A stretch of DNA of 64,000 nucleotides from Fodinicurvata sediminis DSM 21159. GTDB taxonomy: Bacteria; Pseudomonadota; Alphaproteobacteria; Kiloniellales; DSM-21159. The translations under genes were made by a program, and so were the position numbers. This document shows, piece by piece, positions 37,800 to 58,582 of the stretch. Position 1 is the first letter of the stretch; each line of letters opens with the position of its first letter. The stretch lies in contig NZ_ATVH01000014.1 of the NCBI RefSeq assembly GCF_000420625.1, positions 470,348 to 534,347 on the forward strand, written 5' to 3'. The notes beneath the pieces were generated by a model. That model saw nothing but the letters and a program-made list of their open reading frames with translations, was not told the DNA's origin and did no database searches.

Positions 37800-40700
37800 T
37801 CAACTGTCCTTGTGGAAATTCTCGGCTGCTGCGCGGGCAAACCTCTCCAGGAAGCCAAGCCAGCGCTGCATGGTCTGTGCCTCGAAAAGGTCGGTATCAT
37901 ACTCCAGCGTGAAGCGCGCCTGACCGGCCTCTTCAGTCAGGAAAAGAATCAGGTCGTGTTTTGCCGTCGTGTTGTCGACGAATTTGTCCAGATTGCCTGA
38001 CAGCAGGCCTTCCCGTTCGCTGGAAATCGCAGGCAAGCCGCTGTTTTCATCCATGCGAGCCAGCGCATCGAAGCGCTGGTACTCGAAGACCACATTCACA
38101 AGCGGCTGGCGGTTGGCATGGCGTTTGGGCGCCACGGCGCGCACCAGTTCATCAAAGGGATAGTCCTGCCGGTCCAGAGCCGAGGTGATGTTCAGGTGGA
38201 CATCGTCGATCAAGGCCTCCAGATCGGATTCCTCGTCAAGATGCACACGGATCGGCAGGACATTGACGAAGAAGCCGATCAATCCTTCCGTCTCGGTCCT
38301 CTCGCGGCCGGCCACCCCCATACCGATGACCATATCCTGCTGTCGGGTCAGGCGATAAAGCATCGCCGAAAAGATGGCCAGCCCGACAGCCGAAAGCGTC
38401 GTATTGCGGGCCTGCGCCAAGCCATGCAGGCCGCTGAGAACCTCTGGCGCTATAGGCAGATGGACATGAGCCCCGCGATAGGACTGAACCTCCGGCGCCG
38501 GTCGGTCCGTGGGAAGCTTGATCTGCTCAGGCGCCCCCTCCAACTTCGCGCGCCAATACGCGGCCGCCTCCAACCAGTTCTGTTCGACCTGCCAATGGGC
38601 GAAGTCCTTGTAGGTGATGGGCAGTGGCGCCAGATCAGGCGTTTCACCTCCCAATGCTGCTTGATAGAACAGGTTGAGCTCGCGCAACAGAATCCGCGAG
38701 GACCAGCCATCCCCCACGATATGATGTGTTGCCAGGATCAGCAGCTGCTCGTCGGAACCGACCTTGATCATCTGCGCACGGATCAAGGGCGGACGGTCGA
38801 GCGCGACCGGAGTGGCCGCTTCCTCACGCGCCAGGCGCAACGCTTCACGAAGAGGATCGGAATGATCCGAGACATCATTGAAGGCGACAGTCGGTGATGT
38901 GGTTTGGTCAATGCGCTGCACGATACTGCCGTCCTGTTCGATGAAGGCAGTACGCAAGGTTTCATGGCGTTCGACCAGAGCCCGAAGCGCGGATTGCAGG
39001 GCCTCGGCTTTCAGCGCCCCGCTGCACCGCAGCGCAAACAGCATTCCGTAAGCGCCACTGCCGGCCTCCATCTGCGAGAGCAGATACAGCCTTCTTTGCG
39101 CATGACTGGTGGGATAGACATCCATCTTCGGAGCCGGCGGGATGACGGTCCCGGCGGCATGGTTGTCATCTGTGCTCATATCATCGATATGGCGTGCCAG
39201 GCCCGCAATGCTCGGGTTGGCAAAGAAGTCTGCCATGCTGAGACGTTTGCCTGTGCGATCCATGATCCGATTGACAATCCGGATTGCCATCAGACTGTGG
39301 CCGCCAAGGACGGCGAAGCTGGCATTACGGCTCTGGATCGTGGTCTCGAACACTTCACTGAATATATCGGCAACAAGCTGCTCGGTCGGCGCAAGCGCTG
39401 TTTCTTCCTCGTCCGGCCCCTGTGCATCGATCGGGGACTGCATGAGCACCCTGTCCAGCAGTGCCTTGCGATCAACCTTGCCGTTCTCCGTGATCGGGAT
39501 GTCATCGACCAGGTACCATTTCGCCGGCAGCATGTAGCTGGGCAGGCGTTGACCGAGCCAGGCCTGCAGACCTCCCAACCGGCTGTCCGATACGGTACCT
39601 GCTTCATCGCTTTCCTGGATGCAGGCGATGATCTCGCTACCGTTCAGGCCATCAGGGTTGAACAATGCAACGGCATTCCTGATGGAAGGTGCCTGGCGCA
39701 GCTGCTGTTCGATTTCATCCAGTTCGATGCGGAAACCGCGCAGCTTAACCTGGTTGTCCCGGCGGCCGCCAAATTCGATCCGGCCATCACGGGTCCAGCG
39801 TGCCAGGTCGCCGGTCCGGTAGAGTCGTGCACTGGGGCAGTCGGGATCGGGCACGAACCGTTCCGCAGTCAATTCCGGGCGGCCCCAGTATTCGCGCGCC
39901 AGCCTGTCTCCCCCGATCTGCAGTTCTCCCCAGGCCCCGATCGGCACGCGCAATCCGCTTTCGTCACGGATCACCGTCCTGGTGTCCGCAATGGGGCGTC
40001 CAATGACGGTGGAATCCATATTCTCGTCCAGTTCGGACGCCCGGATCCGTGTCACGGTCGTAAAGGTCGTGCTCTCGGTCGGGCCGTAAGCATTCAAAAG
40101 TTGGGTGTCCGGGCAGGCCTCCATGAACCTGCGGGCGTGCGACTTGCTGATGCTGTCGCCGCCGATCATCAGGACCTTCAGTCCCGACAGGCTTGCCGGA
40201 TCATGGTCGATCTGTCGATTGAACAGCCCCACGCTCATGAACATCTTGTCGACACCAAAGCGCTCCAGGGACCTGGCGAAGGCGGCTGGATCGAGCAGCG
40301 TATGGCGATCAATCACGGCGATCTCGGCGCCGCAAAGCAGCGTCGTCCAGATTTCGAAGGTCGCGGCATCGAATGACAATGGCCCGGCCTGGGCCACCAC
40401 ATCACCGGGTGCAACCCAGGCATAGTCCTCGCCCAGGGCCAGGCGCAGGACAGCCCCCTGCTCAATCAGAACCCCCTTGGGCTGACCCGTCGAGCCGGAG
40501 GTGTACATGAGGTAGGCCGGCGCCGCGTGCGGGTCCTGTAATGCCGGGGGCTCGAAACTGCCATCGTCAGGAGGGATTTCGGCGACATGGCAGACCTGTG
40601 CGACACAGTCCGACATCTCTGCGAAGGCAGCTTGTCCGACATCATCGACCAGAACAATTCTGGCGCCACTGTCTTCTAGTATGAAGCGGTTCCGTTCCAC

Positions 40701-46700: not shown

Positions 46701-49700
46701 ATGATCCTGCCCCTCTGCGATATCACGCCAGAAGGCATCCAGATCCTCGGCGCCGGCAAGCTGGACCCCCATGCCGATCACGGCAATCGGTGCAAACTCG
46801 GCCAGCTTCACTTCTGCCGCCTCGGCCAAGTCGCCCGATTTCGCATCGGCAGACTGACCGGCAAGCAGTTCGGCCTGGCGCGCAATCGAGGGGTTGGCAA
46901 AGAGGTCGGCGATCCGAAGCTTTCCCGGCCAGCGCGCCTCGATCTTCTCGAACAGTCGCAGCAACAGAAGGGAGTTTCCGCCTACATCGAAGAAGCCATC
47001 TTCGCGTGCTGGCGCAACATCCGGCAGCACCTCCTGCCAGAACCGGGTAAGTTGCGCTTCAAGCAGGCCTGCCTGCGGGTCATCCTTTTCTGTCGATTCC
47101 ACTGCGGCTTCGGCCGATCTATCGGCGGCATTCGGTGAAGCCGCCAGAGGTGCCCCGGCAAGAGCCTTGCGATCGATCTTGCCGCTGCTCGTCAGCGGCA
47201 GATGCTCGATGACGAAGAAACGGGCGGGCATCATGTACTCAGGCAAGCGACCACGCAGATAGTCACGCAAGCCAAGGGGAGTCAGGTCGTCGCTGCCCAG
47301 GATGAAGGCATGCAATTCGTCGAGTTCGCCGATCTTGACGGCCTTGACCGGCGCGCGCTCCACGGAAGGATGGCTTTCTAGGGCGGCTTCGACCTCACCG
47401 CATTCGATGCGGAAACCGCGAATCTTGACCTGATGATCGATGCGGCCGAGATACTCGATCGTCCCGTCCCGGCGCCATCGCCCCAGGTCACCGGTACGAT
47501 AGAGGCGTTGCCCGGGATTGCATGGATCTTCGGGGAATTTTTCGGCACTCAGTTCGGGACGGTTGCGGTATCCCCGTGCAACCTGAACACCGCCCAGGAC
47601 AATCTCACCGGTCACGCCGATCGGCAGCGGCTGCAGCTCCTCTGTCAGGATCTGAACCGTCGTATTGGCAATCGGTTTGCCAATCGGCACCACAGATCTG
47701 CCCGGACTGGGCGAACAGGGCTGCCAGGTCACATCCACCGTCGCCTCTGTCGGACCATAGAGATTGTGCAGTTCGGTCCCGAATCTCTCGTACAGTAGAT
47801 CGTTGAAACGCTCCACGATCGGAGCGTCCAGGGCTTCACCGCTGGCAAAGACGCGTCTGAGGCTGGACAGCTTGTCGATAGCGACCATGCCGCTTTCGAT
47901 GGCGAACAGGAAGGTCGCAAGCATCGATGGCACGAAATGCAGTGTCGTGACCCCATTGTCGTGGATTGTTTCAGCAAGCTGCTGGGGATCACGCTCGGCC
48001 CCAGGGGGCGGCAGAACGAGTTTCGCACCGGTCCACGACCACCAGAAGAGTTCCCAGACCGACACATCGAAGGTGATCGGGGTTTTCTGCAGGACAACGT
48101 CATCCGGTCCGATCGGGAAGGCGTCCTGCATCCACAGGATCCGGTTCAGGACCCCCCGATGCGCAATCTCGACTCCCTTGGGACGCCCCGTCGACCCGGA
48201 GGTAAACAGCACATAGGCAAGGTCATCCGGTCCGCCGGCGAGCTCCGGGATATCGGTATCCTCATGACCCTCGACAACGAGGACCCGGCCGTCATCGAAC
48301 AGCTCGACAAGATCCGGCGTCGTCAGCACCGGACCATCGCCAAGATCTTCAAGCATCTCCCGACGGCGCTGTTCGGGATGGTCGGGGTCGAGCGGGCTAT
48401 AAGCCGCCCCAGCCAGAAGGATGCCGTGGATAGCAGCCAGCATGTCGACGGAACGCCGCATGGCCAGGCCGACCACCTGACCGGGCCGAACGGACCTTTC
48501 CGCCAGTTTCGTGGCGATTCCGGAGGCGCGCCGCGCAAACTCCGTGTAGGTCAGGCTTTCCCGGCCATCCTGGAGCGCGACTGCATCCGGTGTCCTGCGG
48601 ACCTGATCGAGAAAGGGTTCTGGAATGCTGCGCTCGATTGGCAGATCCTGCGTGGTCGCATTGAACCGGTCGAGCTCGTCCCTTTCGCCCTCCGGCATCA
48701 TGGGCAGGCGCGAAACCGCTGTCGTGGCGCCGGAGGCAAGGGCACTGCGGCAGAGGATGTTCAGTCGTTCGACCAGAGCCGCGATGGTTTCGCGATCGAA
48801 CAGGTCGCTGTCGAACTCGATCTGACCCTGCAGGCGCCCATGACGGCGCCAGAAATAGAAGCCCAGATCGAACTTGGAGAAGGGGAACGCGGTCTCGACC
48901 AGAGAGAGCTCTGCGTCACCCAGTTTGCCCATCTCCGGGATGCCGTCCTGCCAGGCGACCAGGACGTCAAAAAGCGGATTTCGCGAAAGCTCGCGCGGTG
49001 CATTGACCGCACTTACGATGTCCTCAAAGGGCACGGCCTGATCGGACAGTGCATCCATGATCGTCCTGCTGGTGACGGCCAGATGGTCGTCGAACCGCAT
49101 CCCGGGATCGACCGACTGGCGCAGCAGCACAGTGTTGACGAAGAACCCTATGACACTGTCGAGGGCGCTATGCTCGCGCCCGGCAACCAGCATGCCCAGT
49201 GGAATGTCAGTCTGCCCGCAATGGCGATGGAGCAGGAGTTGCACAAGTGCCGTCAGGATACTGAAGGCGGTCGTGCCGCTACGCTCTGCTTTTTCCTCGA
49301 TGAGTTGGGTTGTTTCCGCGTCAAACGTGAAGTCATGGAAACCTCCGGCAAAGCGCCGTTCAGCCCCGCGCGGCCGATCCGTTGGCAGATCAAGCGGTTC
49401 GGGCAAAGGCGTCAAGCGATCTTTCCAGCGTGCGAGCGCCTCCTTGCCGGCATCGCTTTCCAGATAGGCCCGCTGCCAGCTTGCGAAATCTTCATAATGA
49501 CGCTCCAGCTCTGGCAGGACGGCGGCTTCGCTGGCCGCTTCAGCTTGATACAGAGCCGTCAGTTCCTGCAAAAGAATCGGCATGGACCAGCCGTCACAGA
49601 TCGCATGGTGCAGTGAGATCATCAGCCAGTGACGATCGCTAGCCAGGGTGATCAGGTCTGCACGCGCCATTGGCACATCATCGAGGTCGAAAGGCCGCGC

Positions 49701-52700
49701 AGCTTCACATGCAATGAAGCTGCGCGCCGATGCCTCATCCATTCGATGGCGGCGCAAGCTCCAGGACCCGCCGGGGGCTAGATACTGGCTGACTCCATCC
49801 GGATGTCCGGGGTCGCTCCTGAAGCGTAGGCGCAGTGCATGCTGGCGCTCTTCCAAGGCATGAAGCGCGCGCTGCAGGGCCTCGGCATCAACGGAACCAT
49901 CGATCTGGAGCGTTGCCGGAACCGAATAAACGGCAAGATCCGGCTGCATGCGCTGCAGGACCCAAAGCCGGGCCTGACCGCTTGAAAGCGGGAAGCGCTC
50001 GCCGCGTGCCCTGGGCAAGCTGCTAGAGCCCGTTGTCCCTCCCTGGCTATCCACAAGTGCCGCCAGGTTCGCAACTGTGCGTGACGTGAAGATATCCTGA
50101 AGCTTTGGACGGAAACCGGTTTCCTTTTCGATCAGGCCGGCAAGCCGCATGGCGATCAGGCTATGCCCGCCAAGGGCGAAGAAATCGGAAGCCGGCGTGA
50201 TCTCGTTACCGGCGAACAGGCTTTCAAACAGGGCGAGGACGAGCTGTTCTGAAGCGCTATTCGCAGTGGCTGCCTGTACCGGGGTGTCCTCGGCACTTGC
50301 GATCATGGAATGCAGCGCCTTGCGATCCACCTTGCCATTGGCATTGACCGGCAGGTGGTCCAGCACAACGACCCGTTCCGGGATCATGTACTCGGGAAGC
50401 GCGCGCGCCGCTGCGGCAATCCATGAATCGCGATGGTCGCAATCAGCGGCGATTGCAGCGCCAAGAAAGGCATCGGCACCTTTGCCCATAGTCAGGACGC
50501 AGATATTTCGGATGCCCTCCAATTCGGAGAACTTCTGCTCTACCGCCGCAAGCTCGATCCGGTGTCCACGGATCTTGACTTGGCCATCCCCGCGTCCACC
50601 GAATTCGATGGTGCCATCGCTACGCCAGCGGGCCCGATCCCCGGTTCTGTATAGCCGCTCCTCGGCGATATTGCCGTACTGCACGAAGGATCTGGCTGTT
50701 CGTTCGGGAGCGCCACTGTACCCCAGTGCCAGGCCATCACCCGCAGCATGAAGCGTGCCCCAGCAGTCGGTTGGCGCCACTTGGCTCCTGCTGTCCAGAA
50801 CGTAGACCCGGGTATTGCCGATTGGCCTGCCGATGGGGATGTTGCTGGCGGAAACATCCTGCCCGGTGATCCTGTGCGTGCAGGTGAATGTCGTGTTCTC
50901 GGTCGGGCCATAGCCGTTGATCAGCGTCAGATTGGGACAGGCCTGCATGACCTTCATGACATGCGCAGGGCTCAGCGCCTCTCCTCCGGTCATGAGGCGC
51001 TCCAAGGACGCGAAGGCTGTCGGAAGATCGTCGGCTATGCGGTTGAACAGGCTGGACGTCAGCCACAGGCTCGTCACCCCGCACGTATCAAGAGTGTCCT
51101 TCAGTGCGTTGGGATCGAATAGCGTATCATCCTCGATGACTTGAAGCCGCCCACCATTGAGAAGCGGCGCCCAGATCTCGAGCGTCGAAGCATCGAAGCC
51201 AAGAGACGCCGCTTGAGCGATCACATCCTCCGGCCCGAAAGGCAAAGCCACATTGTTCAGAACAAGGCGCGCAACAGCCCGGTTCGGCACCAGAACGCCC
51301 TTGGGCTTTCCGGTCGAACCCGAAGTGAACATGACATAGGCCAGGTCATGCCCCCTGCGCTTTGCAGGAACGGCGTCCCGTGCCCTGCCGTCCTGGTCCT
51401 CGCCACCGCCTTTCGGAAGCGACGTGACCTGGAAGCTGTCTTCAAGTTCGGACAGGCGCGCGCGTTCGCGCGGATCACATAGCAGTGTCCGCGCGTCGCA
51501 CTCGTTCATGAGGTCGGCAACCGTCCTGGCAGGCAGGGACCGGTCAATCGGCAGATAGGCCGCCCCATGCCAGACCAGACCCAGGATCGTAAGGATGCTG
51601 TCCAGACCACGCGCGGCGGCCAGGCCGACGGTCTCCCCCGCCCTGACGCCGCTTTCGTCGAGTTCCGCAGAAATCGCAGCCAGCCGGTTTCCCAGCTCAC
51701 GATAGGTGATCCGGGACCTGCCATCCTCAAGAGCCACCCGCTCAGCAGAATCCGGATGGTTGATGCGCTGTGCCAGCAGTTCGCCAAGACCGGAATCTCT
51801 TGGATAATCCGATTGCGTCGCGTTGAACGCCGTTTCCAGAAGGTGCTTTTCATCTGCCGGAATCAGGTCGACATCGCCGATCGGTTGCGAGGGATCCCTG
51901 GCAAGAGCGCAGGCAAAGTTCAGGAAACGATCCGTAAAACGTTTCACCCAGTCGACGCTGAAGGCGGCTGTTTGATGTTCCACCGCCAGATAGGTACCGG
52001 ATGCGAATTTGACCAGCGCGATCAGCAGCGGGAACTTCCCGGCGCCAACATCGATGTCGGTGACATCCTCCACGTCCTCATGAATTTCGATGACGCTGAC
52101 GGCATCGAACGGCAAATCGGCAGGGCCTTGCGCGTGTTTCGAGAGCCCCTGGATCAGGCGCGTAAGCGGATAGTCCTGCACATCCATAATCGAGAGGATT
52201 TCGCGCCCGACCTGCTTCAGCAGCACATCAAAACCTGCGTCCATATCAGGCGTAATGGCAATCGGCAGGACATTTGCAAAACAACCAAGCGCATGCAGGC
52301 TTTCGCGATCCGCACGCCCGGAAAACGGTAGGCCAAGACAGGCTGCGCCATCCTCTCTGTGGCGCGCGATGACTGCAATCACAAGTGCCATCCAAAGCGC
52401 TGATTGGGTCGCTTTCTCGGCATGGCGCGCTAGTGTCTCCAGCGCTTCGGCTTGGGCTGGTGTCAACTCGACCAGATGGCGTTTGGCCCGATCCTCCTTT
52501 TCCGCAAAGGGGTCGCTTGGCAAGCCCTCGGCCAGAAGCTGGTCGTACCGCTGTTCCCAGAATTCGACAGCCTTGCGTCCACGCTCGCCGGCCAGTTCCC
52601 GGTGAGCGCGCCGGGATAGAGCCTCGGCACTGGATGGGGTTTGCGGCTGCCCGCCTGATAGCTCCTCGAGCAGTTCCTTGCGCAACAACGCGATGGATTG

Positions 52701-53333
52701 ACCATCGAAGCACAAATGGTCAGCGACAAGCCCCAGAAAGGGTGAGTGTGTTTCGGACGGCTCGATATAGCCGAACCTGATGAGCGGGCCGTTCTGAATG
52801 TCGAACACCCTGCTCTGGATATCGTCGAATTGGGCAATTCGAGTGATCGAAACTGGCATTTGCTCGTGCACGCGCTGGATCAACTGGCCATCACGCTCGA
52901 CAAAGGTGGAGCGCAGCGCATCGTTCCGGGCAATGATTCGCCCCAGCGCCCGTTTCACGGCATCGAAGGCGGTATCGTCCGGAAGCCGGAAATGCGTGGC
53001 GATATGGTAATCGTCGCCTGCCGGTATATCGCGGCGGGCCAGCCATTGCCCTTCGACCGCAGGATGAGCTGGGAAACTGGCGACTACGGCGCCAATGTCA
53101 CGATCACGTCCGACTGTCTCTTGCCCATCCGTGCCGTCCCGCAGGATCTCGATGATCTCGTGCTTAAGGGCACGAACCTGCATCTTGAGGTCTTCGTCGA
53201 AGGCCCCGCTTGGCGCATCGAAGACAAGATCGCCTCCATTCTCATGCAGCGAGAGCTGGATATCTCGCGATGCTAGGATCTCAAGCAGCTCGAAGACATC
53301 CGGCTTCCGGTGAATTGGGCTTTCGACATTCAT
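37800..53333 (-). CDS. hybrid NRPS-PKS megasynthetase (5177 aa): dock-C-A-T-C-A-T-KS-(DH-like)-KR-ACP-ACP-C-A-T-C
   Basis: N-terminal TubC-like docking segment (ELLEILASRDIQLSLHENGGDLVFDAP...LKHEIIEIL). C1 DHLCFDG, C2 HHAICDGWS, C3 HHILADAFS, C4 HHIVGDGWS. A domains: FTSGSTGKPKG, FTSGSTGRPKG, YTSGSTGQPKG. T domains: GGHS, GGNS, GGHS. KS: DTACSSS, HGTGT, GHLDGAAG. KR: TGGTGG, YSAAN. ACPs: LGGDS x2. No AT or TE domain. Confidence 0.9.
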   Translation of the reverse strand: MNVESPIHRKPDVFELLEILASRDIQLSLHENGGDLVFDAPSGAFDEDLKMQVRALKHEIIEILRDGTDGQETVGRDRDIGAVVASFPAHPAVEGQWLARRDIPAGDDYHIATHFRLPDDTAFDAVKRALGRIIARNDALRSTFVERDGQLIQRVHEQMPVSITRIAQFDDIQSRVFDIQNGPLIRFGYIEPSETHSPFLGLVADHLCFDGQSIALLRKELLEELSGGQPQTPSSAEALSRRAHRELAGERGRKAVEFWEQRYDQLLAEGLPSDPFAEKEDRAKRHLVELTPAQAEALETLARHAEKATQSALWMALVIAVIARHREDGAACLGLPFSGRADRESLHALGCFANVLPIAITPDMDAGFDVLLKQVGREILSIMDVQDYPLTRLIQGLSKHAQGPADLPFDAVSVIEIHEDVEDVTDIDVGAGKFPLLIALVKFASGTYLAVEHQTAAFSVDWVKRFTDRFLNFACALARDPSQPIGDVDLIPADEKHLLETAFNATQSDYPRDSGLGELLAQRINHPDSAERVALEDGRSRITYRELGNRLAAISAELDESGVRAGETVGLAAARGLDSILTILGLVWHGAAYLPIDRSLPARTVADLMNECDARTLLCDPRERARLSELEDSFQVTSLPKGGGEDQDGRARDAVPAKRRGHDLAYVMFTSGSTGKPKGVLVPNRAVARLVLNNVALPFGPEDVIAQAASLGFDASTLEIWAPLLNGGRLQVIEDDTLFDPNALKDTLDTCGVTSLWLTSSLFNRIADDLPTAFASLERLMTGGEALSPAHVMKVMQACPNLTLINGYGPTENTTFTCTHRITGQDVSASNIPIGRPIGNTRVYVLDSRSQVAPTDCWGTLHAAGDGLALGYSGAPERTARSFVQYGNIAEERLYRTGDRARWRSDGTIEFGGRGDGQVKIRGHRIELAAVEQKFSELEGIRNICVLTMGKGADAFLGAAIAADCDHRDSWIAAAARALPEYMIPERVVVLDHLPVNANGKVDRKALHSMIASAEDTPVQAATANSASEQLVLALFESLFAGNEITPASDFFALGGHSLIAMRLAGLIEKETGFRPKLQDIFTSRTVANLAALVDSQGGTTGSSSLPRARGERFPLSSGQARLWVLQRMQPDLAVYSVPATLQIDGSVDAEALQRALHALEERQHALRLRFRSDPGHPDGVSQYLAPGGSWSLRRHRMDEASARSFIACEAARPFDLDDVPMARADLITLASDRHWLMISLHHAICDGWSMPILLQELTALYQAEAASEAAVLPELERHYEDFASWQRAYLESDAGKEALARWKDRLTPLPEPLDLPTDRPRGAERRFAGGFHDFTFDAETTQLIEEKAERSGTTAFSILTALVQLLLHRHCGQTDIPLGMLVAGREHSALDSVIGFFVNTVLLRQSVDPGMRFDDHLAVTSRTIMDALSDQAVPFEDIVSAVNAPRELSRNPLFDVLVAWQDGIPEMGKLGDAELSLVETAFPFSKFDLGFYFWRRHGRLQGQIEFDSDLFDRETIAALVERLNILCRSALASGATTAVSRLPMMPEGERDELDRFNATTQDLPIERSIPEPFLDQVRRTPDAVALQDGRESLTYTEFARRASGIATKLAERSVRPGQVVGLAMRRSVDMLAAIHGILLAGAAYSPLDPDHPEQRRREMLEDLGDGPVLTTPDLVELFDDGRVLVVEGHEDTDIPELAGGPDDLAYVLFTSGSTGRPKGVEIAHRGVLNRILWMQDAFPIGPDDVVLQKTPITFDVSVWELFWWSWTGAKLVLPPPGAERDPQQLAETIHDNGVTTLHFVPSMLATFLFAIESGMVAIDKLSSLRRVFASGEALDAPIVERFNDLLYERFGTELHNLYGPTEATVDVTWQPCSPSPGRSVVPIGKPIANTTVQILTEELQPLPIGVTGEIVLGGVQVARGYRNRPELSAEKFPEDPCNPGQRLYRTGDLGRWRRDGTIEYLGRIDHQVKIRGFRIECGEVEAALESHPSVERAPVKAVKIGELDELHAFILGSDDLTPLGLRDYLRGRLPEYMMPARFFVIEHLPLTSSGKIDRKALAGAPLAASPNAADRSAEAAVESTEKDDPQAGLLEAQLTRFWQEVLPDVAPAREDGFFDVGGNSLLLLRLFEKIEARWPGKLRIADLFANPSIARQAELLAGQSADAKSGDLAEAAEVKLAEFAPIAVIGMGVQLAGAEDLDAFWRDIAEGQDHVRPLPVTREAETRALLSAIGIKAPKHFREAAYLESIFDFDAQRFRMAPADASLLDPEQRLFMETALMALENAGYGGNALRGQRVGVFAGGGANPAWRLVMEHAASGKAEQAFALNVPSNIVARLSYLKDWHGPARVIDTACSSSLVAVHDACQSLRDGSSRIAIAGGAKLLPCPSDADSAFTIDSSTARTRAFDADADGTGVGEGSAVFVLKPLDAAMKDGDPVHAVIRGSAVNQDGASSGAAAPNPMQQAEVIRQAAESADIDLSSLSYFEAHGTGTSLGDPIEIDGITRAFEGRDQLFESAFIGSGKGNYGHLDGAAGALGLARAILALRHDRAPPQPFFENPNPKIDFDRSPVRVPERLEKLPDRGQARRAGVSSFGLSGINAHMVVEAAQAFIDTISAHTDAGLIHVVALSAGSEAALRDYAAKLHQRIRSDDSLAVRDIAFTLATGRDDLKYRFAVAVQNREELLDQLTQLADGRRQAGFAKTPGEGKAGSASATTAAEAQGHIIRYLDGAPLGWPDGRQARRVSLPSAPFVKKPCKPDFKAGQRTLETWLRGPVETATAQCFSLAISDPDFWPVNEHKLNGQPTLVGMAVPALIAQAVKQLDGGGRTVGIDDLTWHHPLVASAVPDGKVTLSIYEDGQVELAGRLKNGKWRVFATARWNRHVIASNRPGPDLTSIRGKATVTHSLAGFTGQYGPVAMSERWDCSLSFQSDPESTSAIKHLRLADKYHTDLDDWLFHPALADVACSMALDIMAEGSIPLGIERVMVHGLSSAEVFACGQLHSPGKFDVTLFDADSLEPVLTVTGIRFGNAGGEARTGAPEPLKTLWETTAVRQQDIPEGCLFITDGDFWPVPHGCRAVHPDDLDRRVLSDMSHAVLALQPGSDAPRRNAEALRSVLRNMSGGLRLVTLGCGAFQMAGDDVAMAPDQSGTAGVVTAVAHEEPRLAISYADMTPETLRSCLGAELACKPARDPVTVYRDESCFVRKLVPLEESDRREDAGWPDYGVCLVTGGTGGFALALAEEMSAGGKVHLALLGRRDEAGLDEDTRRGLEALRGKGMGLSLFACDVADSAELGKTLDRIRKELGPITAVVHAAGIADGGFLALRDMAQFDAVQSAKVAGAVNLDQLTRNDPLQAFMMFGSLTAVVGAPGQTAYSAANAYLDGFAQLRRNQGRPAQTIDWCALSDQGMAARNDVPMQEGAWIRPGDAARLWRSVLGSSTAQLTMLDPVLLQDDPQSVPEAITPSVSSQAALPPAVESDVEARIAKIWAAVLGYDSVAPQDDFFALGGDSITGMQIVDEINGELGLSLTLSDLFTASSVSEVAALARSAPDGAGRGGELPEDAAGTGDRPAAGLEKALAAIWAETLGYDAVDPDEDFYALGGDSITGMEITDRIVRELGHEVSLTDLFEHSSIRKLKEKLAPSDGEAEAVKDSPLEAEAETPADVVDQAPPEEADPRCAPELSRYPLALEQLSVMNAAQKGNMGTAFNLPHAFVLGEDCDLDGLRAAIRSLTERHEILRTRILPDGDDWQMEVLPAAQVISELPVTQVNAPVEEACTALVEPFDLENEIPVRWRFLADPSGKTALFFDIHHILADAFSVERLLGELFALHCGEDLAPLRYQLRDYAWWSHTDDNRQRLASAKSYWQSLYADSLPKLDLPADRRRPAYHTFRGDIVGFELDPELLGEARKFAANQRVTMFTLVLTTWFVVLSRLAETEDLVIGVPVDARDATGFRDVAGMMVSLLPLRMQVRGRDTVEGLLARMQHHHVNALRHRAYFLDQLLDDLSPPAAPDRTLLSEVTLSYMNYQAANPGSDSSGIAPKVISLDRRHSKNDISIFVRDLPERMAITFDYYADLYDRARIEQLGEVFSNTLKRLIHSNAQQVGSIELLPEDQTRHLQVWENGPAATVPDDTSLFGLFASKVTVSPEHCAARDSEGAWTYSELLAEARAVARHLAAAGVEPGDFIAMHVERGRQAIAAMLGVAAIGAGYVPLDPAYPVERNRFILEDSGARIVLVDDVGQAAFAEMSDCVAQVCHVAEIPPDDGSFEPPALQDPHAAPAYLMYTSGSTGQPKGVLIEQGAVLRLALGEDYAWVAPGDVVAQAGPLSFDAATFEIWTTLLCGAEIAVIDRHTLLDPAAFARSLERFGVDKMFMSVGLFNRQIDHDPASLSGLKVLMIGGDSISKSHARRFMEACPDTQLLNAYGPTESTTFTTVTRIRASELDENMDSTVIGRPIADTRTVIRDESGLRVPIGAWGELQIGGDRLAREYWGRPELTAERFVPDPDCPSARLYRTGDLARWTRDGRIEFGGRRDNQVKLRGFRIELDEIEQQLRQAPSIRNAVALFNPDGLNGSEIIACIQESDEAGTVSDSRLGGLQAWLGQRLPSYMLPAKWYLVDDIPITENGKVDRKALLDRVLMQSPIDAQGPDEEETALAPTEQLVADIFSEVFETTIQSRNASFAVLGGHSLMAIRIVNRIMDRTGKRLSMADFFANPSIAGLARHIDDMSTDDNHAAGTVIPPAPKMDVYPTSHAQRRLYLLSQMEAGSGAYGMLFALRCSGALKAEALQSALRALVERHETLRTAFIEQDGSIVQRIDQTTSPTVAFNDVSDHSDPLREALRLAREEAATPVALDRPPLIRAQMIKVGSDEQLLILATHHIVGDGWSSRILLRELNLFYQAALGGETPDLAPLPITYKDFAHWQVEQNWLEAAAYWRAKLEGAPEQIKLPTDRPAPEVQSYRGAHVHLPIAPEVLSGLHGLAQARNTTLSAVGLAIFSAMLYRLTRQQDMVIGMGVAGRERTETEGLIGFFVNVLPIRVHLDEESDLEALIDDVHLNITSALDRQDYPFDELVRAVAPKRHANRQPLVNVVFEYQRFDALARMDENSGLPAISSEREGLLSGNLDKFVDNTTAKHDLILFLTEEAGQARFTLEYDTDLFEAQTMQRWLGFLERFARAAAENFHKDS

Positions 53334-56300
53334 TAAAGCGCCCCGTGCTCACGTCCTCGCGAGCCATTCGTCGTCAGAGCAGTCGACGCCCCGTCCGCAT
53401 GCGCTGTACGCTCAGAAAGGAATTTCGCCACAGCTTCTGGCGTCTGGTACTCAATCATCACCGAGGCCGGGACTTCGACCTTGAACACCTCGGAGATGCG
53501 TGACGCGATCCGCACCGCCAACAGGGAATCCCCGCCCAGGTCAGTAAAGTCCTGATCTGCCGTGATGCCCGAATTCCCGAACATCTCGCTCCAGATTCTA
53601 AGAACCTTGAAAAGATGCATCTGCTCCGCGGACGCGGTCTGTCCATCGTTGACGATTTCCGGAGTGCCCGTTTCCAGTGTGCCCGCCGTATCCTCGGCGC
53701 GCAGCGAAGCGGGATGCAGGCGCTCTTTGCCTGTCCGGCTCGACTGTTCAGCACTTGATCTCGCCCAATGGCGTCGCCGGTCAAATGCATAAGTCGGCAC
53801 CGGAATGCGACGCACCATGTCACTCGGCACGACAGTTCCGAAATCAAGCTTCACGCCCTGAACCCACATCTGCGCCAACGCGGTCTGCAGGGCGACGTGA
53901 CCGGCATCGACTTCACTGCCAGTTTGTTCTGACATTTGCCGTGGATGGGTTGCAATGCAGAGCTTGGCATCCGCACCGTTCGCGGCGGCGAGCCGGCAGG
54001 CGATGTCACCATGACCACAGTCCACCATCAGGGCTCCGGGCATGGCCGCCTGCAGTCCTTTGATGTTATCGGCGAAGCGGACCGAGTTGCGCATGTGCTG
54101 CACCCAGTAATCGGGATTGACCGCCTCAGCATCACGCAGCCACTGACCGGTCAGATTGGACTGTATCGGAATGCCGGGCGGGGACAACGCGATCTGGCCA
54201 ACAGCTTTCCGAAAGTCCGCGAGCACCGATTCCATCAAGGCGGAATGGAAGGCGCGTGAAACCATGAGCCGCCGTCCGACCTTGCCTTCTTGCTGCAGAC
54301 GCTTCTCGAAATCGTCGATCGCTTTGATCGAGCCGGAAACCACGCACTGCCGCGGGCTGTTGATCGCGGCAAGCGAGAGCTCTGGACCATGGGCCTCCAG
54401 AAGTGCTCCGACTTCCGCCTCACCGGCCGCGAGCGCATACATGGCACCAGGGTTTGTCGAGGCCATCAGCCGCCCGCGTATCACCATGAGACGCAAGGCA
54501 TCCTCGAACGACATGACACCGGCCAGGCAGGCCGCGACATATTCCCCGATGCTGTGCCCAGCCAGCGCGGCCGGTTGGACACCGCAGGCCATCAGGTGGC
54601 GGGCCATGGCATATTCACAAATGAACAGAGCCGGCTGCGCATGGTCGGTTTGCGCAAGACGTTCCGCAGATTCGGATGTCGGCTCAGTTGCAAGAAGCAG
54701 GGATCTGAGATCTTCAGGACCGGAAAAATGCGCTACAGTTTCACAGGCCTGATCGATCAGTTCGGCAGAGGCCGCGTCGGCAGAATGGAGCATGCGTGCC
54801 ATACCCGGTTGCTGCGCCCCCTGCCCCGGAAAGAGGAATGCGGTGATCGCCTCGCTGCTGTCCGCCAACCCTTCGACACGCGCAGGAGACTTCGCATCGG
54901 CAAGAGCCCAGCCGGCAGCTTGGATTGTCTTGGCAACGATGGCGGCACGGTAGGGATATTGTCGCCGCCTGGAAAGGCTGTAGGCCAGATCGCGAATATC
55001 GGCATCCGCCCCTTTGTGCGACAACCAAACAGATGTTCGCGCCATCAAGGATGTCAGCGCCCCCGGGGTGGCTGCGGAAAAACACAGCAAGTGGGGGATC
55101 GGATCGGCAATGCGCTCATCACGCGTTGTCGTTTCCGGGGCGGCTTCAAGAACGACATGCGCGTTGGTGCCGCCAATCCCGAAACTGCTGACACCCGCGC
55201 GAAGTGGTGTCGCTCCGTCCCCTGCCAACGCGACAGGCTGGCCGTTGATCTGGAAGGGCCCATCCTCAAGCGGCAGGCGCGGATTGGGCTCCTCGAAATG
55301 GCAGGTCGGCGGCAGCGTACGGTATTTCAGCGCCAGCAGCGCTTTGATGAGTCCGACCATTCCCGCCGCAGCATCCAGATGCCCGAAATTCCCCTTGACC
55401 GATCCCAGCCAGATTGGGGCTTTGCCTGATGTATCGCCGCTGCCGAAAACCTGATTGAGCGCCGATACCTCGATCGGATCGCCAAGAGGGGTTCCGGTGC
55501 CGTGCCCCTCGATGAAGCGGATGCTTTCCGGGGCGACCTTCCCATCGGCCAGAGCTGTCCGGATAGCACTGGCCTGGCCATTTGCAGTCGGGGCGCTGAA
55601 AGCCGCCTTCGCTGTGCCATCGTTGGAAAGCCCGACCCCCTTGATAACGCCATGAATGGTATCCCCGTCGGCGACGGCATCGCTTAGCTTTTTCAGGACA
55701 ACGACCGCGCCACCACTGGCGCCAACAACACCGTCTGAGCGATGGTCGAAGGGGCGGCATATACCACTGCGCGACCCGATTCCGCCTTCAGTGAAGTAGT
55801 ACCCACCTGAAGGCGCAAGCCCCAAGGAAGCAGCCCCCGCAAGGGCAACGCGGCACTGCCCCGCGCGCAGGGCCTGCACGGCAAGTGCAATGTTGACCAG
55901 ACCGGTTGAGCATGCGGTGGACGTGGACAGTGCCGGGCCAGTCAGGTTCAGCTTGTAGGCCAGCCGACTGGCCGCATAATCCTTGTCATTGGCGATTGCG
56001 AACCCGTACCGCACGGCCCCCGAACCCGTGCCCGCTTCTGCGCGGCCGAGAACATCGAGCATATAGCTGTTGAAACCAACGCCCACATAGACCCCAACCG
56101 GGCCGTCCTGCTCCGGCTGGCAGCCGCTGTCTTCCATGGCGGTCAACGCCGTCTCGAGCAGCAGGCGATGCTGCGGATCGGTTTCGCGCGCCTCCCGATC
56201 CGTCATGGAGAACAGGGTTGCATCAAAGGAATCCACGTCATCGAGAATGCCATGACGTGCGACAAAGGCCGGATCCTCCAGCTGTGAAGGATCCCCACCC

Positions 56301-58213
56301 AGGCTTTCCAGGCGGGCCGCATCGATCTCGCGAATCATGTCCGTCCCGCTTTCCAGCAGCGACCAAAGCGCATCGCGATCCTCTGCACCCGGCAGGCGGA
56401 TCCCCATGCCGACAATGGCGATGTCGGATGTATCGGTTTCAGCGCCCTCGGCCCGCTGTTTCGTGTCCAGATCCGCTAGAGGGATAGCCGGGCTCGCTTG
56501 CCCCAGAAGATAGCGCGCGAAATCCTTGACGGAAGGGTGCTCGAATATCTCGACGGATCTGATCTCGCGTCCGGCCAGTTTCGTCAGGGCAAACTGCGCC
56601 CGTGGAACGAGCAGAGAATGTGCACCGATTTCGAACAGATTGGCATCCACCGGGATATCATCACTCTGAAGGAGCTCGGCCCAGACAGCCTTGACCTTCT
56701 GCGTGAAATCACGCTCGGCCAGCTTGCCAACCGTTGAGTCTTGGGCCATACGCTCCTGTGAAGTCGGCGTCGTTGCCTGTACCGGAGGATCCTGCAGCTG
56801 TACCCCGCTACCCGCTACGATGCCACCGCCCGGACGCAGCTCTTCGCCCGCATCGCCGACCAGAGCCGCAAGGGCGGCTATCTCCTGCTCAGGATCCGCG
56901 ATGACGGCATCGAGGATATGGCGAAAGCATTCAGCGATTCTTACGACCGTTTCGTGTTCCAGGCGGTCGGCATTGTATTGCCAGATCAGTTCGGCTTCGT
57001 TCTCGGTTTCGCTGAGCGCTTGGGCAAAGTAGACCAGTCCAAGGTCATTGACTGGCGCGTTATAGATATTCATCCGCTTGGCTTTGGTGTCGTCAAACTC
57101 CAGCGGTGTCATCGAATCCAGGCTGTTGAAGAATGCCCCGCCGCCAAGGAGGCTGTGCCCCCCCAGGCGCGCCGCACGCATGCGTGCCGGCCCGAGACGA
57201 ATGTGACGGACATCCCGGCGCACACGTCCGAAGATATCCTTGGCCAGTTCCGAAATGCGTTGATGCTTGTTCAGGTCGATATCTAGGGGAACGACACAGG
57301 AAAAGGCACCGGGGGTATTCCGCTCGTCACGGCCGATCCGGTTCAGCATCGGCACAGTCAGGATGGGGTGACTTTCTCCTGAAATCTGGCCAAGCAGAAC
57401 TGCAAACGTGGCCATCATCAACGAAGGCGAAGAGGTGCCGGCTTTCTTGGCTGCACCGATAATGGCATCCAGCTCATCGCCGCTCAGACTTTGCGGGAAT
57501 TGCCTGTGGTGCGACTGCGCACTGTCTGGGCGCGCAGAAAAACGTGTGACCGGCCTGCCGTCTGCCAGGCGATACTTCCAATAGGCCAGGTCCCGTGTGT
57601 AGGCATCACTCTCGGGATAGGCCGCGTCCGATAGGATGAAGTTCCGATAGGAGCGGAAGGAACAGTCCGGAATCGCCGTATTCGAACCCAGCGCGCGATA
57701 GATCTCCTGCACGCGCTCGGCCAGCAGATGCCCGGCAAAACCGTCGCAAACAAGGTGGTGGTACACCCGAACCCACCAACAGACCTTGTCCTCGAGACGG
57801 AACAGGCGGTGACGGCAAAGAAACCCGTTTTCGGGATCAAGAAGACGCGTACGGGTGGCTTCGAGTTCCTGATAGGCAGCCGCCTCGACATCATCGGCAA
57901 ATCGAAGATCGATTACGCTGAAATCGGTGGCACGAACTTCCGAAGCAAAATGCTGCCTCACGTCTCCATCGACGTTGGAAAAGCGCAGTCGAAGGGCATC
58001 GTTCTCGCGGTCTGCCTTTACAATGGCCTGCCAGAGCCTGTCGACATCAAGGTTGCCCTCGAATTGGATGACATTGCAGATATTGTAGCTGGACGGATCT
58101 TGCTCTTTTTTCCAGTCGAGCCAGATACCTGCCTGTATTGTTGTCAGTGCGAACTGTTCATTCGTGTCACTATTTGCTGAGTCACTGGATTCCTGCGAAT
58201 TGATCGCTTTCAA
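53333..58213 (-). CDS. hybrid loading/extension subunit (1626 aa): C - T - KS - AT - ACP, no A domain
   Basis: C domain with HHLVCDG (aa ~151-157), carrier EIGAHSL (~530), KS TACSTG/EGHGTGT/GHLDAAAG, AT GQGAQ/GHSIGE/RAFHS (malonyl-type motifs), ACP LGGDSL. Stop overlaps the megasynthetase start (TAATG). Confidence 0.9.
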   Translation of the reverse strand: MKAINSQESSDSANSDTNEQFALTTIQAGIWLDWKKEQDPSSYNICNVIQFEGNLDVDRLWQAIVKADRENDALRLRFSNVDGDVRQHFASEVRATDFSVIDLRFADDVEAAAYQELEATRTRLLDPENGFLCRHRLFRLEDKVCWWVRVYHHLVCDGFAGHLLAERVQEIYRALGSNTAIPDCSFRSYRNFILSDAAYPESDAYTRDLAYWKYRLADGRPVTRFSARPDSAQSHHRQFPQSLSGDELDAIIGAAKKAGTSSPSLMMATFAVLLGQISGESHPILTVPMLNRIGRDERNTPGAFSCVVPLDIDLNKHQRISELAKDIFGRVRRDVRHIRLGPARMRAARLGGHSLLGGGAFFNSLDSMTPLEFDDTKAKRMNIYNAPVNDLGLVYFAQALSETENEAELIWQYNADRLEHETVVRIAECFRHILDAVIADPEQEIAALAALVGDAGEELRPGGGIVAGSGVQLQDPPVQATTPTSQERMAQDSTVGKLAERDFTQKVKAVWAELLQSDDIPVDANLFEIGAHSLLVPRAQFALTKLAGREIRSVEIFEHPSVKDFARYLLGQASPAIPLADLDTKQRAEGAETDTSDIAIVGMGIRLPGAEDRDALWSLLESGTDMIREIDAARLESLGGDPSQLEDPAFVARHGILDDVDSFDATLFSMTDREARETDPQHRLLLETALTAMEDSGCQPEQDGPVGVYVGVGFNSYMLDVLGRAEAGTGSGAVRYGFAIANDKDYAASRLAYKLNLTGPALSTSTACSTGLVNIALAVQALRAGQCRVALAGAASLGLAPSGGYYFTEGGIGSRSGICRPFDHRSDGVVGASGGAVVVLKKLSDAVADGDTIHGVIKGVGLSNDGTAKAAFSAPTANGQASAIRTALADGKVAPESIRFIEGHGTGTPLGDPIEVSALNQVFGSGDTSGKAPIWLGSVKGNFGHLDAAAGMVGLIKALLALKYRTLPPTCHFEEPNPRLPLEDGPFQINGQPVALAGDGATPLRAGVSSFGIGGTNAHVVLEAAPETTTRDERIADPIPHLLCFSAATPGALTSLMARTSVWLSHKGADADIRDLAYSLSRRRQYPYRAAIVAKTIQAAGWALADAKSPARVEGLADSSEAITAFLFPGQGAQQPGMARMLHSADAASAELIDQACETVAHFSGPEDLRSLLLATEPTSESAERLAQTDHAQPALFICEYAMARHLMACGVQPAALAGHSIGEYVAACLAGVMSFEDALRLMVIRGRLMASTNPGAMYALAAGEAEVGALLEAHGPELSLAAINSPRQCVVSGSIKAIDDFEKRLQQEGKVGRRLMVSRAFHSALMESVLADFRKAVGQIALSPPGIPIQSNLTGQWLRDAEAVNPDYWVQHMRNSVRFADNIKGLQAAMPGALMVDCGHGDIACRLAAANGADAKLCIATHPRQMSEQTGSEVDAGHVALQTALAQMWVQGVKLDFGTVVPSDMVRRIPVPTYAFDRRRHWARSSAEQSSRTGKERLHPASLRAEDTAGTLETGTPEIVNDGQTASAEQMHLFKVLRIWSEMFGNSGITADQDFTDLGGDSLLAVRIASRISEVFKVEVPASVMIEYQTPEAVAKFLSERTAHADGASTALTTNGSRGREHGAL

Positions 58214-58582
58214 AAGCCTTGCCCCTCAACAGCGAACTGTCATTGGTATTCTTTCACCCCTGCATTGTGGTCCACAGGGTTGTTCCTTGGTCTCATGCCT
58301 GCAGCAGAGCGGAGAGCAATTTCGTGGCAAATATGCCCTTCATTGATACGCTATTGCAAGCTGCAACCTGATCTGTTTTGGCAAAATCTGCGCGAGGTCA
58401 ATTACCGCCACAGGAGTTGTTTCTTCCGATATTCTGAGTGTGATTGCGCCAACGACACGCCCCTTGGCACACTATTGTGAACACCGGCATGTGTTCTCCT
58501 TCCGGCGAACTGGTCGCAGTGCACATCTTTCGTGAAGTCGATCTGAATGGTCTGCTGGCTGCCCGGCTTCAACCGCGTGTGT

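What the first reader, a model, noticed from the sequence alone, without database searches (positions are those of the whole stretch)
56489..58213. Loading subunit begins with an intact C domain plus carrier but has no adenylation domain (C-T-KS-AT-ACP)
The first assembly-line protein has an HHxxxDG-intact condensation domain (HHLVCDG) followed directly by a carrier (EIGAHSL) and then KS-AT-ACP. Residues ~450-500 are only a linker, so there is no room for an A domain. A starter-C/carrier pair with no cognate A means the carrier must be primed in trans, or the C domain acts on a CoA or ACP donor in a non-canonical way. Candidates for priming are a free-standing A protein or acyl-ACP/CoA ligase outside the window, or the A domain of the A(MT)-T-TE protein. 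This is an uncommon initiation logic.
Basis: seen in the sequence. Interest (0 to 1): 0.7.

Follow-up and report, generated by a model that had tools for sequence, protein, structure and literature searches.

The report
Thalassospiramide synthetase start module lacking adenylation
The odd "condensation-carrier with no adenylation domain" start is real. It is the first protein of a thalassospiramide-type peptide/polyketide assembly line in Fodinicurvata sediminis, a family where adenylation domains of later modules load this carrier, so it is a known kind of oddity.

Summary
ORF 53333-58213 (-) encodes a 1626-aa C-T-KS-AT-ACP protein with an intact HHxxxDG motif, a carrier serine, and no adenylation (A) domain.

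It is not a new initiation logic.
- The protein is 100% identical to F. sediminis WP_022728593.1.
- It is the orthologue of TtcA, the first protein of the thalassospiramide NRPS/PKS. It aligns to a Thalassospira TtcA homologue in two blocks of 54-55% identity, and only the ~535-aa A1a domain is missing.
- The next two genes are TtcB and TtcC orthologues, and a PPTase gene follows, as in ttc.
- Tistrella mobilis TtmA also starts C1-T1 without an A domain.

Published mutagenesis (bioRxiv 10.1101/560987) shows that this C domain is a starter C that adds the fatty acid. It also shows that the first carrier is loaded by the downstream A3 (Ser) and A2 (Val) domains. Both A domains are conserved here with the same specificity codes.

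A review states that a thalassospiramide cluster was found in Fodinicurvata, with no product detected.

Side observation: two relatives carry a divergent stand-alone C-A-T gene next to this gene. F. sediminis lacks it.

The parts
53333..58213 (-). ttcA-like gene: 1626-aa C1a-T1a-KS1b-AT1b-T1b protein with no A1a and no KR
   Evidence: Pfam. 100% identical to F. sediminis WP_022728593.1. 54-55% identical in two blocks to Thalassospira xianhensis TtcA homologue P0015.
56867..58156 (-). Starter-type condensation domain C1a (residues 20-449), HHLVCDG at residue 152
   Evidence: Pfam Condensation, E=5e-55. Best solved-structure hits are 7C1K/7C1H (which I recall, from memory, to be the RzmA starter C domain), then EntF, ObiF1, PvdL and CDA-C1. 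54% identical to TtcA C1a. dN/dS 0.13.
56699..56866 (-). C-T linker (about residues 450-505) where homologues carry the A1a domain
   Evidence: Single ~535-aa gap against A-containing TtcA homologues. dN/dS 0.65. No AMP-binding hit.
56474..56698 (-). Carrier domain T1a (about residues 506-580), serine in FEIGAHSLLVPRAQ
   Evidence: Second PP-binding stretch. PDB carrier hits at 499-572. The motif is nearly identical in TtcA homologues.
55292..56428 (-). KS1b (residues 596-974) with the Cys/His/His catalytic residues
   Evidence: Pfam ketoacyl-synt N and C. TACS 766, HGTGT 904, NFGH 942.
54038..54838 (-). AT1b (residues 1126-1392), GHSIG and RAFHS motifs (malonyl-type by motif, from my own knowledge)
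   Evidence: Pfam Acyl_transf_1. Motifs.
53417..53608 (-). Carrier T1b (residues 1536-1599), GGDSL
   Evidence: Pfam PP-binding. Motif.
53336..53353 (-). C-terminal tail REHGAL, a putative docking peptide for the TubC_N-type docking domain of the next protein
   Evidence: The RExGxL terminus is conserved in all TtcA homologues and in the stand-alone C-T of F. fenggangensis. TubC_N domain at the N-terminus of the next protein. The docking function is inferred.
37800..53333 (-). ttcB-like gene, 5177 aa: dock-C2-A2-T2-C3-A3-T3-KS4-(no AT)-DH4-KR4-T4a-T4b-C5-A5-T5-C6
   Evidence: Pfam. Motifs. 61% identical and collinear with T. xianhensis TtcB over the 3333 aa available. 44% identical to TtmA.
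50298..51341 (-). A2, Val-type code DALWMGG(TF)K, candidate trans-loader of T1a
   Evidence: Specificity code extracted against GrsA. A2 loads T1 in Ttm (10.1101/560987).
47145..48218 (-). A3, Ser code DVWHFSLV(D)K, best candidate trans-loader of T1a
   Evidence: The code is identical in T. xianhensis TtcB and T. mobilis TtmA. A3 loads T1a with Ser in Ttc (10.1101/560987).
34305..37799 (-). ttcC-like gene, 1164 aa: A6 with an embedded methyltransferase near its N-terminus, then T6 and TE
   Evidence: Pfam. 52% identity over 100% of its length to TtmB on T. mobilis plasmid pTM1.
33493..34263 (+). PPTase gene, in the position of ttcD
   Evidence: Pfam ACPS and 4PPT_N. ttc includes the PPTase TtcD. 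Orthology to TtcD was not tested.
58383..58582 (.). ~200-bp unique stretch upstream of ttcA, at the position where two relatives carry a 3.66-kb segment with a divergent stand-alone C-A-T gene
   Evidence: blastn of the window against L005. Gene tables of L005 and L001.

Best explanation
The protein is the Fodinicurvata sediminis orthologue of TtcA, the first subunit of the thalassospiramide hybrid NRPS/PKS. In this version the module-1a adenylation domain is absent.

Proposed mechanism:
1. The holo carrier T1a is aminoacylated by an adenylation domain of the neighbouring TtcB-like megasynthase. A3 (Ser) is the most likely loader, and A2 (Val) is the alternative or additional one.
2. The starter condensation domain C1a N-acylates that amino acid with a fatty acyl group taken from acyl-CoA or acyl-ACP.
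3. The N-acyl-aminoacyl chain then takes one of two routes. Either KS1b/AT1b extends it by one malonyl unit onto T1b, with the keto group reduced later by KR4, or module 1b is skipped.
4. The chain passes through the RExGxL tail / TubC_N docking pair to C2 of the 5177-aa protein.
5. Assembly then proceeds as in Ttc and ends at the A(MT)-T-TE protein.

Shown here: the domain anatomy, the clean absence of A1a, orthology of all three synthetase genes to Ttc/Ttm, conserved catalytic motifs, purifying selection on every domain, and conserved Ser and Val codes for A3 and A2.

Taken from published experiments on the orthologues: the starter-C function, trans-loading by A3/A2, skipping of module 1b, and no need for additional enzymes.

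Inferred for this organism: which A domain loads T1a, and whether any product is made.
For: - Architecture C-T-KS-AT-ACP without AMP-binding.
- Downstream genes have the Ttc layout: a TubC_N dock, a trans-AT module 4 with DH-KR and tandem T domains, a terminal C, an MT-in-A6-T-TE protein, and a PPTase.
- The protein is 100% identical to the F. sediminis protein.
- Two-block alignment to the Thalassospira TtcA homologue: residues 7-450 (54%) and 474-1600 (55%), with the A domain (P0015 residues 447-982) missing.
- TtcB orthology at 61%. TtmB at 52% and TtmA at 44%.
- TtmA begins C1-T1 with no A domain, and window residues 21-572 align across it.
- The C domain is closest to the 7C1K/7C1H structures and to other acyl- or aryl-accepting C domains.
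- A3 has the Ser code and A2 the Val code, both conserved across three genera.
- dN/dS is 0.13-0.21 for C, T, KS, AT and ACP.
- Literature (10.1101/560987): C1a/C1 inactivation abolishes all products. A1a mutants still make Ser-first analogues. A3 loads T1a. In Ttm both A2 and A3 load T1. No stand-alone A or AT is needed in a heterologous host.
Against: - A review reports that no thalassospiramide was detected from Fodinicurvata (PMC5577590), so function in this strain is unproven.
- Ttc, the closest characterised relative, has A1a, so the A-less state combined with the PKS module 1b has not itself been tested. It is unknown whether KS1b accepts N-acyl-Ser or N-acyl-Val.
- Two relatives keep a stand-alone C-A-T gene next to this gene. 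That gene could be the natural loader in this lineage, and it is missing here.
It reproduces DAWTIAAICK, but the last positions of some codes are alignment-dependent.
Confidence: 0.75

Rival explanations
1. T1a is loaded by a dedicated enzyme outside the operon, such as a stand-alone A or C-A-T protein encoded elsewhere in the genome. This is essentially the first reader's main suggestion.
For: Both relatives examined (Logan contig L005 at 90% identity, and F. fenggangensis L001 at 65%) carry a divergent stand-alone C-A-T gene directly upstream of the C-T gene. Its C domain is starter-like. It ends in SREQHLI, which resembles the RExGxL tail.
Against: The window has no such gene: at the syntenic site 3.66 kb is replaced by ~200 bp, and no A or acyl-ligase gene was found elsewhere in the window. 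Region 13-19.9 kb was checked only for ORFs, not by Pfam. A search with the C-A-T protein returned no F. sediminis hit, but that search also missed the F. fenggangensis copy, so this is weak evidence. Ttc and Ttm work in Pseudomonas putida without any extra A. The C-A-T is only 26-30% identical to any Ttc/Ttm module.
Confidence: 0.15
2. The cluster is a silent or decaying relic in this strain. Loss of A1a, and of the neighbouring C-A-T gene, left an initiation module that no longer works.
For: No thalassospiramide was detected from Fodinicurvata (review PMC5577590). The C-A-T gene present in relatives is missing. F. fenggangensis retains only a C-T remnant-like gene, without the PKS part and with no TtcB-like gene within 10 kb.
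Against: All catalytic motifs in the three synthetase genes are intact, and there are no frameshifts or stops across 23.9 kb. dN/dS is 0.13-0.21 in every domain against a relative at dS about 0.2. The A-less start works in Tistrella. Lack of detection in culture is common for silent clusters.
Confidence: 0.08
3. C1a transfers the fatty acyl group directly onto the phosphopantetheine thiol of T1a, so the line starts with a fatty acyl chain extended by KS1b and no first amino acid.
For: There is no A domain in the module. The T-KS junction resembles the Pks13 N-terminal ACP-KS, which takes a fatty acyl chain. Thiol-to-thiol acyl transfer occurs in the wider CoA-dependent acyltransferase superfamily (own knowledge).
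Against: The orthologous C1a/C1 domains N-acylate an aminoacyl carrier. The reported products begin with an N-acyl amino acid, and in the reported mutants the first residue follows A1a/A2/A3 activity.
Confidence: 0.02

Closest known systems
TtcA-TtcB-TtcC-TtcD thalassospiramide NRPS/PKS of Thalassospira sp. CNJ-328 (compared here through the T. xianhensis homologues P0015 and L003)
   Same: Same gene order, with the ttcA stop overlapping the ttcB start. The domain order is the same throughout: KR-less PKS module 1b, TubC_N dock, AT-less module 4 with DH-KR and tandem T, terminal C6, MT inside A6, and a PPTase gene. Identity is 54-61%. The RExGxL tail is shared. A3 has the identical Ser code.
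   Different: The ~535-aa A1a domain (Phe/Tyr-activating in Ttc) is absent here and replaced by a ~55-aa linker. Only the trans-loading route, which in Ttc competes with A1a, remains available.
TtmA-TtmB of Tistrella mobilis KA081020-065 (plasmid pTM1, NC_017957.2)
   Same: The assembly line starts with C1-T1 without an A domain. This has been characterised experimentally: T1 is loaded by A2 and A3, and C1 is essential. TtmB is 52% identical to the A(MT)-T-TE protein.
   Different: Ttm has no PKS module 1b, C1-T1 is fused directly to C2, A5 is also missing, and there is no PPTase gene. C1-T1 is only 30% identical to the window's C-T, so the A-less state probably arose independently.
Other nonlinear NRPSs with A-less C-T or Cy-T modules loaded by another module's A domain, for example yersiniabactin HMWP1 loaded by HMWP2 (own knowledge; the class is cited as refs 6-10 in 10.1101/560987)
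   Same: A carrier that follows a condensation-type domain, has no A domain of its own, and is aminoacylated by an A domain elsewhere in the complex.
   Different: In those cases an upstream A domain supplies a downstream module. Here, as in Ttc/Ttm, downstream A domains would supply the very first module.

Membership tests
Thalassospiramide-type (Ttc/Ttm) hybrid NRPS/PKS assembly line | First subunit orthologous to TtcA (starter C, T, then KS-AT-T without KR) | tested here: met
   Two collinear BLASTP blocks of 54% and 55% identity to the Thalassospira TtcA homologue P0015. The Thalassospira homologues are the next-best database hits after the protein itself and its 90%-identical relative P0013.
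Thalassospiramide-type (Ttc/Ttm) hybrid NRPS/PKS assembly line | Second subunit C2-A2-T2-C3-A3-T3-KS4-(trans-AT)-DH-KR-T(-T)-C5-A5-T5-C6, orthologous to TtcB/TtmA | tested here: met
   Pfam and motif layout. 61% identity, collinear over 3333 aa of T. xianhensis TtcB. 44% identity over about 4000 aa of TtmA.
Thalassospiramide-type (Ttc/Ttm) hybrid NRPS/PKS assembly line | Terminal subunit with a methyltransferase embedded near the N-terminus of A6, followed by T-TE | tested here: met
   MT at residues 221-352 splits the AMP-binding match. 52% identity over full length to TtmB.
Thalassospiramide-type (Ttc/Ttm) hybrid NRPS/PKS assembly line | A3 specific for Ser, and A2 (and A5) for Val, as required for the Ser-C2-Val units and the 12-membered ring | tested here: met
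   A3 is DVWHFSLV(D)K in the window, T. xianhensis and T. mobilis. A2 is DALW(M/L)GG.. (Val-like). A5 is Val/Ile-like but less certain. The A6 code could not be interpreted.
Thalassospiramide-type (Ttc/Ttm) hybrid NRPS/PKS assembly line | Makes thalassospiramide lipodepsipeptides | not testable with these tools
   A review reports a cluster in Fodinicurvata but no detectable product (PMC5577590). The primary paper (J Biol Chem 2016, 291:27228) is not in the library.
Starter (lipo-initiation) condensation domains | N-terminal position, an intact HHxxxDG motif, and closest similarity to C domains that take acyl-CoA, acyl-ACP or aryl-carrier donors | tested here: met
   The domain is at the N-terminus of the first protein, with HHLVCDG. 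Top PDB sequence hits are 7C1K/7C1H (recalled from memory as the RzmA starter C), EntF, ObiF1, PvdL and CDA-C1. No formal phylogeny was made. The function is shown only for the orthologues.
A-less NRPS modules loaded in trans (nonlinear NRPS) | C-T module with no A domain, with the carrier serine retained and under selection | tested here: met
   No AMP-binding hit at E<=0.1. Clean A-sized gap. Serine in GAHSL. dN/dS of T is 0.19.
A-less NRPS modules loaded in trans (nonlinear NRPS) | Demonstrated aminoacylation of the carrier by an A domain of another module | not testable with these tools
   Shown genetically for Ttc (A3) and Ttm (A2, A3) in 10.1101/560987. Inferred here by orthology.

The most novel reading that the evidence does not exclude
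In the Fodinicurvata lineage the natural partner of the A-less C-T start is the divergently encoded stand-alone starter-C-A-T protein. It is present in a 90%-identical relative and in F. fenggangensis, and it ends in SREQHLI, which resembles the RExGxL docking tail. It would act either as the trans-loader of T1a or as a second, competing initiation module that docks on the TtcB-like protein. Its 3.66-kb deletion in F. sediminis DSM 21159 would then explain why no product was detected from this genus.
Probability: 0.2. Interest if true: 0.45.

Novelty: already known. Interest (0 to 1): 0.25.

Why it matters
The finding points at a non-textbook feature: an assembly line whose first carrier has no adenylation domain of its own. 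That feature is the hallmark of thalassospiramide synthetases. Their inter-module loading, module skipping and pass-back extension have already been worked out by heterologous expression and point mutants.

The value of this window is comparative. F. sediminis carries a natural "A1a-deleted TtcA" that still has the PKS module 1b. This is a natural version of the A1a-inactivation mutants and sits between the "complete" Ttc and the "incomplete" Ttm architectures. If it is expressed, it would show whether KS1b accepts Ser- or Val-derived starters. Together with the relatives that keep an extra stand-alone C-A-T gene, it would also show how these lines gain and lose domains.

Tried and rejected
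1. Word-indexed homology search with the C-T part alone. It returned only 11 hits and missed both the identical F. sediminis protein and the 54%-identical Thalassospira TtcA homologues. My early impression that the C-T was nearly unique was therefore an artefact. The full-length query and the exhaustive search corrected it.

2. Siderophore idea. The best NCBIfam C-domain hits are MxcG and EntF, which suggested an aryl-capped siderophore. I rejected this because no DHB genes are in the window and the orthology to Ttc is clear.

3. Split-off A1a idea. I tested whether the stand-alone C-A-T of the relatives is a relocated A1a. It is only 26-30% identical to every Ttc/Ttm module, with no special affinity to module 1a, so this is not supported.

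4. Remnants of the C-A-T gene in the 58214-58582 intergenic region. None were found.

5. The primary papers on cluster variants (J Biol Chem 2016, PMC5207150; JACS 2013, PMC3563429) are not held. I could not confirm exactly how the Fodinicurvata architecture was described there.

The rest of the F. sediminis and F. fenggangensis genomes could therefore not be searched for stand-alone A genes or for a TtcB homologue.

7. The exhaustive representative search ranks huge multi-C synthetases highly because scores sum over domains. It was of limited use beyond revealing P0132 and P0135.
Full report
**Observation**

The ORF at 53333-58213 on the minus strand encodes 1626 aa. Pfam finds:
- Condensation at residues 20-449
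- two PP-binding stretches
- ketoacyl synthase at 596-974
- acyltransferase at 1126-1392
- no AMP-binding match, even at E<=0.1

The HHLVCDG motif is at residue 152 and EIGAHSL at residue 530. The finding's coordinates correspond to residues 1-575, which is the C-T pair.

**Context in the window**

- The gene is first in an operon. Its stop overlaps the start of a 5177-aa gene (37800-53333), which abuts a 1164-aa gene (34305-37799). A PPTase gene lies on the other strand at 33493-34263.
- The 5177-aa protein reads: TubC_N dock, C-A-T, C-A-T, KS without AT, DH, KR, two tandem carriers, C-A-T, terminal C. The 1164-aa protein is an A domain interrupted near its N-terminus by a methyltransferase, followed by T-TE.
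- Upstream lie a DUF5368-type membrane protein (family taken from the annotation of the L005 orthologue), a Tat-signal flavoprotein and the cytochrome bd genes. None of these is biosynthetic.
- Region 1-13 kb is housekeeping.
- No stand-alone A or acyl-ligase gene was found in the parts of the window I annotated.

**Identity**

- The protein is 100% identical to a Fodinicurvata sediminis protein, WP_022728593.1.
- Apart from a 90%-identical sequence from a Logan assembly, the best hits are ~2120-2160-aa C-A-T-KS-AT-T proteins of Thalassospira.
- Against the T. xianhensis protein P0015 the alignment falls into two blocks: residues 7-450 on 2-446 (54%) and 474-1600 on 983-2094 (55%). Exactly the AMP-binding region of P0015 (Pfam 478-832 plus the C-terminal subdomain) is skipped.
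- In T. xianhensis the next gene is a 5181-aa protein with a TubC_N domain, and its start overlaps the previous stop just as in the window. It is 61% identical and collinear with the window's 5177-aa protein over all 3333 aa that I could fetch.
- The A(MT)-T-TE protein is 52% identical over its full length to the first gene of Tistrella mobilis plasmid pTM1.
- The 5215-aa gene that precedes it across the plasmid origin is 44% identical to the window's megasynthase. That gene begins with C-T and no A domain, and window residues 21-572 align to its residues 29-560.

**What these proteins are**

These are the thalassospiramide synthetases. According to bioRxiv 10.1101/560987:
- Thalassospira Ttc consists of TtcA (C1a-A1a-T1a-KS1b-AT1b-T1b, lacking KR1b), TtcB (over 15.5 kb, with a trans-AT module 4 and tandem T domains), TtcC (MT positioned at the N-terminus of A6) and the PPTase TtcD.
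- Tistrella Ttm lacks A1 and A5.
- Both clusters produced thalassospiramides in Pseudomonas putida without any stand-alone A or AT gene.
- Inactivating C1a (or C1) abolished all products, consistent with a starter C that adds the fatty acid.
- Inactivating A1a removed only the Phe/Tyr-first analogues, whereas inactivating A3 or T1a abolished everything. The authors conclude that A3 loads T1a with Ser.
- In Ttm both A2 and A3 load T1.

A review (PMC5577590) states that the 2016 J Biol Chem survey found thalassospiramide clusters of varying completeness across Rhodospirillaceae. That survey included Fodinicurvata, from which no product was detected. I could not read the primary paper.

**Mechanism proposed for this locus**

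1. T1a is aminoacylated in trans by A3, or by A2, of the adjacent megasynthase.
   - A3 carries the Ser code DVWHFSLV(D)K, identical in the window, T. xianhensis and T. mobilis.
   - A2 carries a Val-type code.
2. C1a then N-acylates the loaded amino acid. By sequence C1a is closest to the solved structures 7C1K/7C1H, followed by EntF, ObiF1, PvdL and CDA-C1. I recall 7C1K/7C1H to be the RzmA starter C domain; that is from memory, since the tool names them only as NRPS modules.
3. The chain is then either extended by module 1b or skips it.
4. It passes to C2. The extreme C-terminus RExGxL is conserved in all TtcA homologues and faces a TubC_N docking domain. A docking role is my inference.

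**Evidence that the A-less protein is maintained rather than decaying**

- All catalytic motifs are intact. C2 has DHxxxDG in both F. sediminis and T. xianhensis, so that deviation is ancestral.
- Against the 90%-identical relative, dN/dS by region is: C 0.13, T 0.19, KS 0.17, AT 0.21, ACP 0.21, and the C-T linker 0.65.

It is partly right. Priming in trans is the accepted logic.

**Beyond the finding**

- F. fenggangensis (and a 99%-identical MAG protein) encodes a 607-aa stand-alone C-T that is 65% identical to the window's C-T. It ends in the same KREHGAL tail, as if the PKS part had been cut out in frame.
- Both F. fenggangensis and the 90%-identical relative (L005) carry a divergent stand-alone C-A-T gene immediately upstream. 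The two copies are 81% identical to each other. The protein has a starter-like C domain, the code DA(D/E)NIGAITK and the tail SREQHLI.
- In the window the corresponding 3.66 kb is replaced by ~200 bp at 58383-58582.
- This protein is only 26-30% identical to any Ttc/Ttm module, so it is not a relocated A1a. Whether it loads T1a or acts as an alternative initiation module in those relatives is open. Its absence here is compatible with either A3/A2 loading or a crippled pathway.
- A Thalassospira MAG protein (P0132) shows yet another A1-less variant: C-T, no KS, then AT, fused to the TtcB part.

**Verdict**

The feature is real and unusual by textbook standards. It belongs to a characterised family in which exactly this peculiarity has been explained, and in an organism whose cluster is already mentioned in the literature. 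Interest is therefore low to moderate. The residual novelty lies in the domain gain and loss among Fodinicurvata relatives.

Noticed in passing
L005 4615-7881 (-) and L001 6191-9418 (-); syntenic site in the window is 58383-58582: Two relatives encode a stand-alone starter-C-A-T protein (1088 and 1075 aa, 81% identical to each other) divergently upstream of the C-T gene. It has the code DA(D/E)NIGAITK and the tail SREQHLI, which resembles the RExGxL tail. F. sediminis lacks the whole 3.66-kb segment. Next to the gene in L005 is a 66-aa ORF (4438-4638) with no Pfam hit.
   Followed up: partly
L001 10001-11824 (F. fenggangensis) and L002 2064-3872 (MAG): A stand-alone 607-aa (602-aa in the MAG) C-T protein, 65% identical to the window's C-T, keeps the same C-terminal KREHGAL tail but lacks KS-AT-ACP. 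No TtcB-like gene lies within 10 kb. It may be a remnant of a reduced thalassospiramide-type line or part of a small separate system.
   Followed up: partly
window 53336-53353 and 53139-53291: The terminal hexapeptide RE(H/Q/T/R)G(A/V/M)(L/I) is conserved in all TtcA homologues examined and pairs with a TubC_N-type docking domain at the N-terminus of the TtcB-like protein. It is probably a short linear docking motif.
   Followed up: partly
window 36744-37139 (residues 221-352 of the 1164-aa protein): The methyltransferase is inserted early in the A domain, before Pfam AMP-binding profile position ~155, rather than at the commoner late site. This matches the described N-terminal position of MT6 in TtcC.
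   Followed up: partly
window 37800-53333, roughly 42.4-46.3 kb: Module 4 has KS-DH-KR and two tandem carriers (GGDS at residues 3501 and 3595) but no AT. The only AT in the window is AT1b. Module 1b has no KR. Both gaps are known features of Ttc.
   Followed up: partly
window 52.7 kb (residue ~210 of the 5177-aa protein) and residue 3804: C2 has DHLCFDG instead of HHxxxDG, conserved in T. xianhensis. C5 has HHILADA, with Ala in place of the final Gly.
   Followed up: partly
P0132 (Thalassospira sp. MAG, 3174 aa, partial): Another natural variant: C-T without A, the KS lost, the AT retained, and a direct fusion to the C2-A2-T2-C3-A3-T3-KS part. Loss of A1 has happened repeatedly in this family.
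   Followed up: partly
window 19906-25202: A type II thioesterase gene, two ~550-aa ABC transporter genes and a PLP-dependent (PALP) enzyme gene lie 9-14 kb from the synthetase genes. Housekeeping-looking transporter genes and an SPFH-domain gene lie in between. Whether they belong to the cluster is unknown; flanking genes were dispensable for ttc.
   Followed up: no
window 27350-30207: A 669-aa MFS protein has a ~270-aa N-terminal extension. It is translationally coupled to a 283-aa ORF with no Pfam match.
   Followed up: no
(tool behaviour): The word-indexed protein search missed a 100%-identical full-length protein and 54%-identical orthologues when queried with the 600-aa C-T fragment. It also missed the F. 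fenggangensis C-A-T in the last search. Absence of hits from that tool should not be read as rarity.
   Followed up: yes
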